A stretch of DNA of 64,000 bases from Octopus vulgaris (lineage: Eukaryota), in assembly GCA_951406725.2 (NCBI GenBank), contig OX597826.1, forward strand, positions 59,148,001 to 59,212,000, read 5' to 3'. Shown here piece by piece: positions 11,896 through 61,306 of the stretch. The notes below the pieces were generated by a model, which made no database searches, was not told where the DNA came from, and was given only the letters and a program-made list of their open reading frames with translations. The translations under genes were made by a program, and so were the position numbers. Numbering within the stretch: position 1 is the first letter of the stretch; every line of letters begins with the position of its first letter.

Positions 11896-12248
11896 TATCC
11901 GATCTAACACCTGTTTCTGCTTCCAATGCTACATGGTATTGACATTGATATTCTAAAAATAATATTCATCATATTTGGTAATAAATCCGATTCGGAACAT
12001 GGAGATTCATCAGTGTGAAGAAAATGCATACATAAAAGAAAAGAAAAGAAGAGCATCGAAAGGAAAAGGAAAAGGTTCTTCTTTTCTTTTCTTTTCTTTT
12101 CTTTTTTTTTAAGAACTAACTTTTCTTCACTCTGATGAAGCTCCATGACCCAGATCGGATTTAGTGCCAAATTTGATGAATATTATTTTGGGGATATCAA
12201 TGACAATACCACATAACATCGGAAGCAGAAACAGCTGTTAGATGGGAT
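11896..12248. mobile_element. Aged inverted-repeat element; each arm carries a type I HHR with a long stem II insert
   Basis: Right arm (+): CTGATGA 12132-12138, stem II GCTCC...GGAAGC, GAAA 12228-12231, palindromic stem III CAGCTG, TT. Left arm has the reverse complement (TCATCAG 12007-12013; AACACCTGTTTC 11906-11917). Arms carry many mismatches; stem I is imperfect. Confidence 0.72.
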
Positions 12249-12910
12249 GTATTCTATTTGCATTTAGTTAAAAAACGAAAATTGGCGTATGACAATTTTT
12301 GTTCATCAATATTTCTCTGTTTACTTTATATATATATATACACACACACACACACACACATATATATATATATATATATATATATATGGTATATTCAAGT
12401 TTTATCGTAAATATTTTATTGCTGAATTCCATGAAAGTATGACTATTATCATTTACCTTCAGAGTTGTAAGGCTTGGCAACTGAGAAGCAATAACCATTC
12501 AGAAACACCGGTGTCACTAAATCTCGTGTGCTCTCAACACACATCATTTAAAGGAAGCTTTCTGATCAGCATGGCACCAGTGATGTAGGAACTCATTTCT
12601 ACAGCTGACTGAACTGTAGCAACGTGATACATAGTGGCTTGCTCAAGGACATATCAGAGAGCTCGATCAAGTAATCGAAGTCACTATCTTATGATTGTGA
12701 GCCTGATGCTCTAAGGAGTCATGCACCTAGATATATATATATATAAGGAGCCATGCACCTTCACTATATTTATATATATATATATATATATATATATATA
12801 TATATATATATATATATAAACACTATGAAAAAAGCATGACGATAGTACGATATATACAAACAAACATATATGCATACAGGTATATATATACATATACATA
12901 TATATATATA

Positions 12911-13349
12911 GGCGTAGGAGTGGCTGTGTGGTAAGTAGCTTGCTTACCAACCACATGGTTCCGGGTTCAGTCCCACTGCGTGGCATCTTGGGCAGGTGTC
13001 TTCTACTATAGCCTCGGGCCGACCAAAGCCTTGTGAGTGGATTTGGTAGACGGAAACTGAATGAAGCCTGTCGTATATATATATATATATATATATATAT
13101 ATATATATATATATATATGTGTGTGTCTGTGTTTGTGATGTCTGTGTTTGTCCCCCTAGCATTGTTTGACAACCGATGCTGGTGTGTTTATGTCCCCGTC
13201 ACTTAGCAGTTCGGCAAAAGAGAACGATAGAATAAGTACTGGGCTTACAAAGAATAAGTCCCGGGGTCGATTTGCTCGATTAAAGGTGGTGCTCCAGCAT
13301 GGCCGCAGTCAAATGACTGAAACAAGTAAAAGAGTAAAGAGAGTAAAGA
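12911..13349 (+). mobile_element. tRNA-derived SINE, family C (GGCG.AGGAGTGGCTGTGTGGTAAG; CORE-like C.TTGGGCA.GTGTCTT) with internal (TA)n/(TG)n, full length
   Basis: A/B boxes (TGGCTGTGTGG; GGTTCAGTCCC) and (AAGAGTA)n-type tail; homologous to 22657-23065. Confidence 0.92.
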
Positions 13350-13426
13350 GATATATGTATGTATATATACATACATTCACATACTTACACATATGCACAC
13401 GCACGAACATACACGCACGAACGCAC

Positions 13427-13860
13427 ATGCAGACAAACACACATGCCTATATGAATATACAGACATATAAGTATGTATGTATATATATATATATACAAAC
13501 AAACATATATATATATTACAGATATACACGATATAGACATATACAATGATATGTAAGTTTCTCTTTCTCCCTGTATATATATATATATATATATATATAT
13601 ATATATATATATATATATATATATATATATATATATACACACACGAAAACACACGCAGACAAACATACAAACAGATATGAATATACAGACATATAAGTAT
13701 GTATGTATGTATGTATGTATGTATGTATGTATGTATGTATGTATGTATGTATGTATGTATGTATGTATGTTTGTATATATATATACAAACAAACATATAT
13801 ATATTACAGATATACATGATATAGACGTATACAATATGCAATTTTCTCTTTCTCTTTGTA
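13427..13860. repeat. Local tandem duplication of a ~150-200 bp microsatellite-containing unit
   Basis: TATGAATATACAGACATATAAGTATG...ACAAACAAACATAT...TTACAGATATACA.GATATAGAC.TATACAAT occurs at ~13449-13550 and ~13676-13835. Confidence 0.85.
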
Positions 13861-16824
13861 TATATATATATATATATATGTGTGTGTGTGTGTGTGTGTG
13901 TGTGTGTGTACATATATATATATATATATATATATATATATATATATATATAAGATATATCTATTGATTTGTATATCTTGTAGGTCTTCGTCCTTGTAGG
14001 TACTTTTTCATTCGATATCACCTTATAAGACATTAAGACATGTATTCCTATATTTTTCTGCCATGTTTGTTCTATTTAATATTCGTCTGTTGAAATATTT
14101 TACAGTGAATTCGTTTCTCAATAAAATTATTGATTGGTATGCCATTGTATATTTCAATAAGCATTTTCGAAAATACATATATAACAAAAAATTTAAATAA
14201 ATGACAAATCTACAAAATATATGAATAGATATATTCACATGTATATTGTTGCATCAATATGTTATATATATATATATATATATATATATATATATATATA
14301 TGTGTGTGTGTGTGTATTTATATAAATAGACAGATAGATAGACATATACACAGGCGCATACATGCATACATATGTATATATATATATATATATATATATA
14401 TATATATATATATATATATATGTATATATGTGTGTGTGTGTGTATAAATACATGATCATATTTGCACACATACATTTGTGAGTGTGTATATTATAATCCA
14501 AACTTATAATGCAATCAAATATTCTACGTAAAATTATATATGTATGGGTGTGTATACATGGATGTATGTCTGCCTTTATGCATGTATGTACCTTCTCATA
14601 CATCTGTCAGTTTAAGTATGTATATATCGATCTATAACTCAACCCATGCATAAATATATATATATATATGTATATATGTACACACATACATGCATACATA
14701 CATATATATATATATATATATATATATATATATATATATATATATATATATATATATATATATATATATATATATATATATATATATATATATATATATA
14801 TATATATATATATATATATACAGATATACGTATATATAAACATATACACAGGGGCATACAGACATGCATATATTTATATATACAAATAAATACATATATA
14901 TGTGTATATATATGTATATATATCTGTGTATATGCATTATATATATATATATATATATATATATATATATATATATATATATATATATTTATATATATAC
15001 ATATATATGTATATCTTTATATGTGTGTGTAAACTTATATATATATGTATTTATACATATATAGACATATATACATACATATTTACATATTCATATATAT
15101 ATATAAGTATATATATAAATGTATATATATATATAAATGTATATATATATATATATATATATATATATATATATATATATACATACATATATATATATAC
15201 ATATATATATATATACATACATATATATATATATATATGTATATATATATAAACACACAGACGTATTCAGATAACTATATGCTTGCTTGTATATATATCC
15301 ATGCAAACGTTAACATATAGTTTCAAATCTTTACGCGTGTTTGTTTGTTTGTTTGTTTGTTTGTATACTTGAATGTATATATATATATTAATAAAGATGT
15401 ATAAAAATTTATGACGAATTTGCAAACGGATGTTGCTAGGCAATTTATATATCCACCTACGTAATGAACCTTTCGTTACTGCAAACAAAATAACCCCCTT
15501 ACAACAATGAAAAATGAAGAACAATAATAGTAAAAAGGTTGCAGAAATCTTGACATTGATGATAACCTCAAATTCATTGTTTGATGACAAAAGAATAAGT
15601 ACAGTTCGATTCGTGCTTTTAAAAAAATAAAATAAATATATTCTTTCAAATATCACGCACAACGTGAAAGATAATAGTATGTGTGTGTGTGTCTGTGTGT
15701 ATATCTGGCAGCACGTATACAGATATGTATGTATATGTATATATATATACATATATAAATATATTTATATATATATATAAATGTATTCATATATATATTT
15801 ATATATATATGGATATATATATATATATATATATATATATATATATATATATATATATATATATATATATATATATTGATATAGATATATATACATATAC
15901 ATAATTTATATAAATATATATATATATTTATATATATATATTTATATATATGTATGATATATATATATATATATATATATATATATATATATATATATAT
16001 ATATATATATATATATATATATATATATATATATATGTATATATATAAGTATGTATGTATTATTAGGTGTCAGAATGTGATTGTGAAGAAGTGTGTATGA
16101 TGGCATATATGTCTCTATATGCAGGCAAATATATATATATATATATATATATATATATATATATATACCTTACATCTGTAGGTAAGGTGATCTTTGTTTT
16201 TTGAGCTTACGTATATTTTTCTTTGTATATCTATATATACATACATCCATACGTATGTACATAGATATGTATGTATGTATGTGTGTATGTATAAAACTGA
16301 CTGGCTCTCCGTCGGTTATGAGAGTTCCATTTCATCAGGTCAACGTAAATTTCACCATTGAAAAGGCTGTCAATTTGAATAACACGTACGACTCGTTTTT
16401 GCCAGAAAAGTGTCCTGGAGCAACGTGGAATAAAGCGTCTTGATCAAGGACTCAGCGTGCCAATAGAAATAATCGAACTCATGGCTTTATGATCCTAGCC
16501 ACGAAGCCGCATGCCTTAATACACATACACACACACATGTGTCTGTATATATGCATACATACATACATGCATACATACATACATGCATACATTCATACAT
16601 GTATACATACATACATACATACATACATACATACATACATACATACATACATATGTATATACAGTAATTCCTCGGTTCCTACGAAACAGCCATATTTAAT
16701 TGTCAGTATAGTTATTGCTTTCAATTATTATAGAGATTTTTTAACTAACTAATTTGCTTGTCATATATACATGCCTATATACAATATATATGTATATACA
16801 TACATTTATACATCTACTTTAGTG

Positions 16825-60410: not shown

Positions 60411-60610
60411 GTAGGTCCCGGGTTGATTCGGGGTTAACCACAGTAAATAAGGTACTCAATACATAGCAGAGTAAAATTAATTTATTATATAGAAGGAGCT
60501 TCTACAGGACTAGAACTGTTTCATTCAAGAGAAATCTTCAGGAAGCTCCTGAAGATTTCTCTTGAATGAAACAGTTCTAGTCCTGTAGAAGCTCCTTCTA
60601 TATAATAAAT
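60411..60610 (-). mobile_element. TA-flanked HHR mini-element with a perfect palindrome (64-bp arms) giving back-to-back HHRs
   Basis: 60480-60543 is the reverse complement of 60547-60610. Minus HHR 60495-60549: GGAGCTTC-CTGAAGA-TTTCTCTTGAAT-GAAA-CAGTTCTAGTCCTG-TA-GAAGCTCC (8-bp stem I). Plus HHR core CTGAAGA at 60549-60555. Confidence 0.92.
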
Positions 60611-60869
60611 ATATATATATATATATATATATATATATAGAGAGAGAGAGCGAGAGAGGGAGAGAGAGTGAGAGAGGGAAAGAGAGAGAGAGATACTATA
60701 ATTAGGGCTCACCAAATTGCTTCACCACATGCCGAAATTTAGAAATAGCAGTTAAATACTATTCCTCTCCCATAATATATATGTTAAATTTTAATTTTTA
60801 CTCACTTATTTCCTTCTTCTGTGTACTATTTCAATTGAATATATATATTTATATATATCATTGAATATA

Positions 60870-61058
60870 TATATGATAGATCGTTAGCCACTACACACAT
60901 TTTTTTCTCTCCTTGTTTTTTTTCTGTGTCCCTTTCTGTAGAAGAGCGTAGGCTCGAAACGTAAAAGACTCTTTCAATTCCTGGGCTTTATACCAATACA
61001 TCTGTTTGTTTTGTACACTACCTGTCTTCGTCTTTTGTTTTCTTCGTGTACTCTCTCC
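60870..61058 (+). mobile_element. TA-flanked mini-element with a minimal variant HHR-like motif (60932-60967)
   Basis: CTTT-CTGTAGA-A-GAGC GTAG GCTC-GAAA-CG-TA-AAAG. Confidence 0.75.
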
Positions 61059-61122
61059 ATATATATATATATATATATATATATATATATATATATATAT
61101 ATATATATATATATATATATAT

Positions 61123-61306
61123 AGGGTTAAGCAACAAGTTGCTTCACCACATACCGAAAATTTAGAAATAGCAACCAAAAGACAGCTGATTTCTTTTTAT
61201 TATTGTTATCTGTGGAGTCATATCTGTAGTAAAAAGAAATGAGCTGTCTTTTGGTTGCTATTTCTAAATTTTCGGTGTGTGGTGAAGCAAAGTGTTGCTT
61301 AAACCT
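61123..61306. mobile_element. TA-flanked palindromic element (~80-bp arms); related fragment at ~60700-60770
   Basis: TTGCTTCACCACATACCGAAAATTTAGAAATAGCAACCAAAAGACAGCT versus its reverse complement at ~61242-61290; few mismatches. Confidence 0.87.

What the first reader, a model, noticed from the sequence alone, without database searches (positions are those of the whole stretch)
11896..61306. Recurrent asymmetric-palindrome insertion signature suggests a second priming event from the TA target
Seen: inverted duplications at 11896-12248, 21780-22240, 24585-24738, 30247-30577, 30637-30839, 37115-37381, 46382-46582, 47093-47120, 60480-60610 and 61123-61306. In the clearest cases the inverted arm omits the terminal 45-95 nt and merges into the flanking repeat at an internal AT-rich patch. 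The two members of one family stop within ~5 nt of the same point (21780 and 37115). Arm identity ranges from perfect to heavily diverged, implying activity over a long period. Established: PLE insertions often have an inverted 5'-truncated upstream segment; L1 twin priming gives non-overlapping arms. Inference: overlapping arms need two templates or fold-back synthesis, and would supply dsRNA substrate in a lineage known for abundant ADAR editing.
Basis: partly seen in the sequence, partly recalled or inferred. Interest (0 to 1): 0.72.

Follow-up and report, generated by a model that had tools for sequence, protein, structure and literature searches.

The report
Penelope-type retrotransposon hairpins in TA repeats
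These lopsided DNA hairpins are real and are the already described footprint of Penelope-like jumping genes landing in TA repeats, here packed densely in what looks like an octopus-family genome.

Summary
All 10 inverted duplications exist (arms 14-205 nt, 80-100% identical; 21 local inverted hits versus 2 in 20 shuffles). Nine share one layout: (TA)n - tail of 42-179 nt - arm - spacer of 3-243 nt - inverted arm without tail - (TA)n or (GA)n. [quoted passage not shown] Type I hammerhead motifs are firm at 2 of 10 loci (one with the Hydra-clade core), weak at 3, not found at 5; Rfam and Pfam found no PLE hallmark. Solo copies of three families start at the same tail-less boundary, so that boundary is a family-wide start site. 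The window cannot separate priming on RNA from cDNA fold-back; 3-nt loops at three loci favour fold-back. The ADAR link is untested. New local members of a known kind; modest interest as material for testing PLE mechanism.

The parts
11642..12325 (.). Locus A: possible tail 11642-11820, arms 11821-12024 and 12121-12325 (80%), oldest case; hammerhead-like motif 12132-12239 (+) reading outward from the centre
   Evidence: core exact but stem I only 2 bp contiguous, so weak
21732..22237 (-). Locus B: tail 21732-21782, arm 21783-21888, 199-nt middle that itself folds into an older rod (z -6.3), second direct tail copy 22088-22131 (partial tandem), inverted arm 22132-22237; no microhomology at the inner junction; no hammerhead found; strand inferred from the tail
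24531..24738 (-). Locus C: tail 24531-24585, arms 24586-24630 and 24694-24738, spacer 63; single copy in window; strand inferred from the tail
30206..30576 (-). Locus D: possible tail 30206-30247, arms 30248-30406 and 30420-30576 (97%), spacer 13; single copy in window; strand inferred from the tail
30621..30951 (+). Locus E: inverted arm 30621-30692, spacer 91, direct arm 30784-30855, tail 30856-30951; 6-nt microhomology at the inner junction; related to G and to the solo copy near 51360
37072..37381 (-). Locus F: tail 37072-37114, perfect 132-bp arms around a 3-nt loop; same family as B
46288..46582 (-). Locus G: tail 46288-46381, arms 46382-46482 and 46486-46582 (89%), 3-nt loop; tail and body align with E
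46664..47120 (-). Element H: about 430 nt between TA tracts, with a type I hammerhead (46812-46891, minus) and a perfect 28-nt palindrome at its 5' end (47093-47120)
60411..60610 (-). Locus I: tail 60411-60479, perfect 64-bp arms around a 3-nt loop; hammerhead with Hydra-type core in both arms (60518-60541 minus, 60549-60572 plus); centre lies at the 5' edge of stem I
61124..61432 (+). Locus J: inverted arm 61124-61202, spacer 24, direct arm 61227-61305, possible tail 61306-61432; strand inferred from the tail
54175..54236 (+). Solo, tail-less copy of family I with hammerhead; ends in a TA tract at the same boundary as I's inverted arm and begins at the same 5' point as I's centre
63863..64000 (-). 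Tailed copy of family I, cut by the window edge 2 nt past the shared 5' point
51360..51590 (-). Solo, tail-less copy of family E starting at E's tail boundary; weak hammerhead-like motif (one core mismatch)
60695..60760 (-). Short solo copy of family J starting at J's tail boundary

Best explanation
These are short insertions of several Penelope-like element families (or their non-autonomous derivatives) into (TA)n tracts. Identity as PLE products is about 0.85 likely; the full mechanism below is less certain. (1) The GIY-YIG endonuclease nicks both strands of a TA tract (shown in vitro for another PLE; inferred here). (2) One nick primes cDNA at the downstream RNA start site, giving tail plus body; the opposite nick primes a second cDNA at the upstream start site, an AT-rich patch 40-130 nt further in, giving body without tail (two fixed ends are shown here by solo copies; priming is inferred). 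(3) Both cDNAs run toward the RNA 5' end and are joined head to head with 0-6 nt of microhomology (junctions shown for B, E, I; the joining step is inferred). The one-sided tail in 9 of 9 cases is simplest if one RNA is copied twice, which is possible because PLE reverse transcriptases have no RNase H domain (recalled, not from a call).
For: Layout matches PMC8557442 Fig. 2 and PMC3846280. Strict type I hammerhead descriptor: 3 hits (I, its solo copy, H) versus mean 0.03 in 200 shuffles. Family I core pattern matches the Hydra-clade table in the supplement of PMC8557442: 3 hits versus mean 0.02 in 100 shuffles; Hydra families there nearly all target (TA)n, one is from Octopus bimaculoides, and one is noted with a 5'-truncated inverted copy. 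Hammerheads read outward from the centre (head to head) at I and A. Tail-less solo copies start at the same boundary in 3 families. Both tail ends are kept between diverged E and G (score 65 versus shuffle maximum 57). Spacers of 63-243 nt at B, C, E, and no microhomology at B's junction, are easier with two cDNAs than with a hairpin loop. PMC11167929: both strands cut and extended, two start sites bracket the tail, no homology needed, dimer predicted; F's start without a TA patch fits this.
Against: No hammerhead found at B, C, D, F, J, and only weak motifs for A and the E/G family. Rfam gave no hammerhead match for the window or for the I and H pieces. No RT or GIY-YIG piece in 86 locus reading frames. 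F, G and I have loops of exactly 3 nt, the smallest hairpin loop; the spacer belongs to the tailed arm in 3 of 3 testable cases (B, E, I); H's 14-bp hairpin does not begin at the family 3' end. All three points fit fold-back better. In vitro the two strands did not differ in start site, which would predict some symmetric products; 0 of 9 were seen.
Confidence: 0.45

Rival explanations
1. Same PLE origin, but by fold-back. The first cDNA runs off the RNA 5' end, folds back and copies itself. The other TA end of the target then anneals at the first AT-rich patch of that copy and primes second-strand synthesis, trimming the copied tail. The second priming event is on DNA, not RNA.
For: 3-nt loops at F, G, I; tailed arm is the longer in 3 of 3 testable cases; H's 28-nt end palindrome resembles the 18- and 38-bp palindromes at pLTR 5' ends in PMC3846280; arms are closer to each other than to other family copies (I 64/64 versus 59/64 and 56/60; B 105/106 and F 106/106 versus 94/108); TA-like runs near arm starts in two of three window sizes; self-priming proposed in PMC3846280, there on an antisense template.
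Against: B has a 243-nt spacer with no microhomology; I offers only 1 bp to prime on the template known from two other copies; tail-less solo copies need a separate route; F has no TA patch at its arm start.
Confidence: 0.35
2. Some single-copy loci (A, C, D, J) are MITE or foldback DNA elements with long terminal inverted repeats that landed at TA, and the 'tail' is unrelated flank.
For: No hammerhead at C, D, J and no second tailed copy for A, C, D, J; D has a short TA run at its tail boundary; MITEs can be reduced to two TIRs (PMC8969392 passage).
Against: Cannot hold for B, F, I, E, G, whose tails are shared with other copies and always one-sided; A carries a hammerhead core facing outward; J has a solo copy starting at the same boundary.
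Confidence: 0.12
3. Sequencing or assembly artefact (chimeric fold-back reads).
For: F and I arms are 100% identical; read data were not available.
Against: 7 of 9 long-arm loci have diverged arms (80-99%); mirrors stop at family-specific boundaries shared with solo copies rather than running through tail and flank.
Confidence: 0.03
4. Two independent insertions of the same family next to each other in opposite orientation.
For: This explains other inverted pairs in the window, such as 28981-29702 and 21241-21625.
Against: No TA tract or flank between the arms, spacers of 3 nt, and arms closer to each other than to other copies.
Confidence: 0.05

Closest known systems
Hydra-clade PLEs (Hydra-1_Obim, Penelope-13_HM; PMC8557442 text and supplement)
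   Same: (TA)n target; hammerhead near the 3' end with the core pattern that family I shows; AT-rich patch a few tens of nt after the ribozyme; 5'-truncated inverted copy noted for Penelope-13_HM; present in Octopus bimaculoides.
   Different: No ORF here; the Hydra-1_Obim ribozyme motif itself is absent from the window (0 matches with 3 mismatches); family I has a longer helix III loop and is only about 135 nt.
Penelope/Poseidon PLEs (PAc of Anolis, PMC11167929; Pen2a of Adineta, PMC3846280)
   Same: Inverted pLTR head to head, tail on one end, palindromes at the inverted junction, AT-rich target, two RT start sites.
   Different: Published tails are 30-40 nt; verified tails here are 43-96 nt. 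There the tail encodes the ORF start; here the open frame through the B/F tail shows 4 synonymous and 12 non-synonymous codon changes and no database hit.
Naiad PLEs (PMC8557442)
   Same: (TA)n target, tandem and inverted structures, tail, no canonical hammerhead, present in Octopus; a candidate home for family B/F.
   Different: No coding sequence to place B/F; 0 of 5 window motifs were found in that paper's supplement (exact match, one strand, line breaks can hide hits).
Animal non-LTR retrozymes and PLE min-HHR solo elements (10.64898/2026.07.22.740005; PMC4209133)
   Same: Short non-coding elements with type I hammerhead derived from pLTRs; paired hammerheads 100-700 bp apart on opposite strands were noted in Schistosoma.
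   Different: Retrozymes are head-to-tail arrays; these loci are head-to-head pairs, and only B has a partial tandem.
L1 twin priming (recalled; not read here)
   Same: Both target strands prime cDNA and give a 5' inversion.
   Different: L1 arms do not overlap; here the second arm repeats the 3' part of the first.

Membership tests
Penelope-like elements (EN+) | Telomerase-like RT and GIY-YIG endonuclease in one ORF | not testable with these tools
   The inserts are 3' ends of 60-430 nt. 0 of 86 locus frames and 0 of 105 other long frames hit GIY-YIG in Pfam; the only RT hit is a LINE-like piece at 39584-39787. The host genome is not in the collections, so partners could not be sought.
Penelope-like elements (EN+) | Inverted 5'-truncated copy head to head with the direct copy | tested here: met
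   9 of 10 loci by layout; orientation fixed by a ribozyme only at I (firm) and A (weak).
Penelope-like elements (EN+) | Tail at one end only | tested here: met
   9 of 9 long-arm loci; verified by a second copy in 5. Lengths of 43-96 nt exceed the 30-40 nt in print.
Penelope-like elements (EN+) | Partial tandem (pLTR) | tested here: inconclusive
   Only B, 1 of 10, repeats its tail in direct orientation (43 of 44 nt).
Penelope-like elements (EN+) | Type I hammerhead motif in the terminal repeat | tested here: inconclusive
   Firm at I and H, weak for A and the E/G family, not found at B, C, D, F, J; no Rfam match. Short arms may be truncated before the motif.
Penelope-like elements (EN+) | (TA)n or AT-rich target | tested here: met
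   8 of 10 tail-less ends within 1 nt of a TA tract, background 0.86% within 5 nt; not exclusive to these elements.
Hydra clade (family I only) | Hydra-type hammerhead core near the 3' end | tested here: met
   Pattern from the table; 3 hits versus 0.02 expected.
Hydra clade (family I only) | RT/EN phylogeny | not testable with these tools
   No coding sequence in the window.
MITE / TIR DNA transposon | Symmetric terminal inverted repeats forming both ends | tested here: not met
   B, F, I, E, G extend on one side by a family-shared tail; undecided for A, C, D, J.
MITE / TIR DNA transposon | Target-site duplication | not testable with these tools
   Cannot be read inside (TA)n tracts without empty-site alleles.
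Non-LTR retrozyme | Head-to-tail tandem units each with a hammerhead | tested here: not met
   No such array at any of the 10 loci.

The most novel reading that the evidence does not exclude
In this lineage PLEs routinely copy one RNA twice, from two fixed start sites onto the two nicked strands of a TA tract, so that every two-armed product has exactly one tail (9 of 9 here). The resulting head-to-head hairpins (about 3% of this window, 1.4% in arms of 95% identity or more) are the main non-microsatellite source of near-perfect double-stranded RNA behind the exceptional ADAR hyper-editing of octopods, the role that a palindromic Harbinger repeat plays in the frog.
Probability: 0.15. Interest if true: 0.6.

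Novelty: new member of a known kind. Interest (0 to 1): 0.28.

Why it matters
The structure itself is known, but how PLEs build it is called unresolved in the papers read. Nine short two-armed products in 64 kb suggest that the genome holds enough of them to test the models by counting spacer lengths, junction microhomology and tail symmetry. Octopus has the highest measured share of loci able to form near-perfect dsRNA among 19 species (4.4 x 10^-3, PMC5625713 passage), and that paper lacked repeat annotation for octopus, so these hairpins are a testable candidate source. They can also be mis-annotated as MITEs or microRNA hairpins (best Rfam rows for locus I were microRNA models below threshold).

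Tried and rejected
Rfam: 0 matches at gathering score for the window; e-value scans of the window, I and H gave only sub-threshold microRNA or snoRNA rows in what was listed (150 of 374 rows shown). Pfam on 86 locus frames and 105 other frames: no GIY-YIG or PLE RT. The idea that tails encode the ORF start: the 65-aa frame through B's tail had no hit in two searches and B versus F shows 4 synonymous and 12 non-synonymous codon changes; rejected for B/F, untested for the 26-aa frame in C and the 36-aa frame in E. The idea that the tail-less end is the ribozyme cut site: rejected, the end lies about 23 nt past the cut in I. A visual likeness of J to H was not significant (score 43, shuffle maximum 59). 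The hammerhead call for the E-family copy leans on a 17-nt stretch that E lacks, so it is kept as weak. The relaxed descriptor found A and H but, by its design, not I. Five window motifs and the Hydra-1_Obim ribozyme motif gave no cross-match with PMC8557442's supplement. A LINE RT fragment gave no protein hit for taxon assignment; taxon rests on one hit to Argonauta hians from a SINE-derived frame and on recalled likeness to octopus repeats. Searches for 'Penelope + twin priming' (2 papers listed, seen as listing only) and 'octopus genome + Penelope + palindrom + repeat' (0 papers) found no paper on these loci; the library lacks most subscription journals, including the 2005 and 2006 PLE reviews. 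The host genome, raw reads and RNA data were not available; metagenome and viral collections stayed unchecked, and the prokaryotic genome collection was not relevant.
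Full report
Observation. The window is AT-rich and a quarter simple repeats (16,555 of 64,000 bases masked). Arms are 14-205 nt and 80-100% identical, spacers 0-243 nt. Nine loci have a one-sided extension of 42-179 nt to the next TA tract. 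The end without extension lies within 1 nt of a TA tract at 8 of 10 loci, against 0.86% within 5 nt at random. A is larger than listed, B holds a second direct copy of its tail, and H is a 28-nt palindrome at the end of a longer element.

The extension is part of the element. B, its tandem copy and F start at the same base; I and the copy at 63863 start at the same base; E and G, though much diverged, align over tail and body. For A, C, D and J no second tailed copy exists in the window. Solo copies at 54175 (family I), near 51360 (family E) and near 60695 (family J) have no inverted arm yet begin at the same tail-less boundary. So each of these families has two fixed outer ends.

What the elements are. 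A strict type I hammerhead descriptor gave 3 hits (I, 54181, H) against a mean of 0.03 in 200 shuffles. Family I's core follows the pattern of the Hydra-clade table in the supplement of PMC8557442: 3 hits against 0.02. A has an exact core but a poor stem I; the E-family copy has one core mismatch; B, C, D, F and J have none. Rfam found no hammerhead and Pfam no PLE domain in 86 locus frames. Membership is therefore firm by motif for 2 of 10 loci, weak for 3, and by layout alone for 5. The host looks like an octopod: one protein hit to Argonauta hians plus recalled likeness.

What is in print. PMC8557442 (passages, and supplement parts 2, 52, 53 of 59 plus two searches) describes an inverted 5'-truncated copy next to the 5' end, a 30-40 bp tail often at one end only, and (TA)n targets, and lists Naiad and Hydra families from Octopus. 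PMC3846280 (part 1 of 5, passages, Discussion) describes a shorter inverted pLTR, 18- and 38-bp palindromes at pLTR 5' ends, and reads them as self-priming. PMC11167929 (parts 1 and 2 of 4) shows that a purified PLE protein cuts and extends both strands of AT-rich DNA, starts at two internal RNA sites that bracket the tail, needs no homology, and is predicted to be a dimer. PMC4209133 (passages) notes paired ribozymes on opposite strands 100-700 bp apart. PMC8969392 (passages) lists inverted pLTRs and short 3' extensions as curation signs of PLEs. I also saw parts 1 and 2 of 5 of 10.64898/2026.07.22.740005 and passages of PMC5625713, PMC9989829 and PMC6962438.

Mechanism. Two models give the same layout. 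In the first, both nicked TA strands prime cDNA on RNA, at the tailed and the tail-less start, and the cDNAs join head to head. For it: tail-less solo copies in 3 families; long spacers at B, C and E; no microhomology at B's inner junction, 6 nt at E, 1 nt at I; F's start without a TA patch; the in vitro result. In the second, the first cDNA folds back, and the other TA end primes on that DNA at the first AT-rich patch. For it: loops of exactly 3 nt at F, G and I; the tailed arm owns the spacer in 3 of 3 testable cases; H's end hairpin. Arms closer to each other than to other copies fit both, provided one source is used. In family I three copies agree up to the same 5' point, the edge of ribozyme stem I, and I's centre lies there, so the centre marks a run-off point under either model. 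The TA-like patch at the arm start is window-dependent (P=0.033, 0.13, 0.0006). All 9 long-arm loci carry one tail; independent choice of start site at even odds would give this about 1 time in 500 (my arithmetic; 4 of the 9 tails are unverified), which points to coupling, most simply one RNA copied twice. I put priming on RNA at 0.45 and fold-back at 0.35; both may occur.

Other rivals. A MITE origin remains open for A, C, D and J only. An assembly artefact is unlikely: 7 of 9 long-arm loci have diverged arms, and the perfect ones stop at family boundaries. Independent neighbours explain other inverted pairs in the window but not these. TA adjacency alone is weak evidence, since 4 of 7 copies of a SINE-like family also end within 8 nt of a TA tract.

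ADAR. F would fold into a 132-bp stem if transcribed (z -37). Arms total 1,947 nt, 920 nt of them in B, D, F and I at 97% or more. PMC5625713 reports octopus as highest in near-perfect dsRNA potential and ties the frog's to a palindromic repeat. No transcription or editing data were at hand, so the link is a hypothesis.

Verdict. Real, non-random, and explained as PLE insertion structure. The families seem not to be those in the one supplement searched, and verified tails are longer than those in print. New members of a known kind; interest 0.28.

Noticed in passing
window 34923-35172: 72-nt inverted repeats (88%) around about 100 nt of degenerate TTAGGG-type repeats, with no TA flanks; a possible foldback or MITE element carrying telomere-like repeats.
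   Followed up: no
window 36843-37033, 60875-61059, 62735-62925: Three copies of a roughly 190-nt element ending at TA tracts, with a conserved minimal-hammerhead-like motif whose core has the same one-base change in all copies; none has an inverted arm; two lie directly beside loci F and J across a TA tract.
   Followed up: partly
window 21889-22087: The middle of locus B is itself an older imperfect hairpin (z -6.3), suggesting an earlier inversion that became part of the transcribed unit.
   Followed up: partly
window 63990-64000: The family I copy ends at the window edge with 2 nt that would continue a perfect palindrome; it may be an eleventh two-armed locus.
   Followed up: partly
window 54157-54174: An 18-nt palindrome with a TA core lies directly at the 5' junction of the solo family I copy.
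   Followed up: no
   Followed up: no
window 39150-40120: Decayed LINE-like reverse transcriptase fragments on the plus strand (weak Pfam RVT_1, E 0.0024; no protein hit).
   Followed up: partly
window 28981-29702, 21241-21625, 22903-24048, 32464-33804, 3840-4590: Inverted pairs of abundant SINE-like repeats within 1.5 kb (78-89% identity), a second possible dsRNA source.
   Followed up: no
window 44029-44668: Tandem copies (periods 259 and 162 nt) of the most abundant interspersed repeat of the window.
   Followed up: no
window 46583-46663, 47127-47210, 60611-60695: (TA)n followed by (GA)n compound tracts sit at the tail-less or far end of G, H and I.
   Followed up: no
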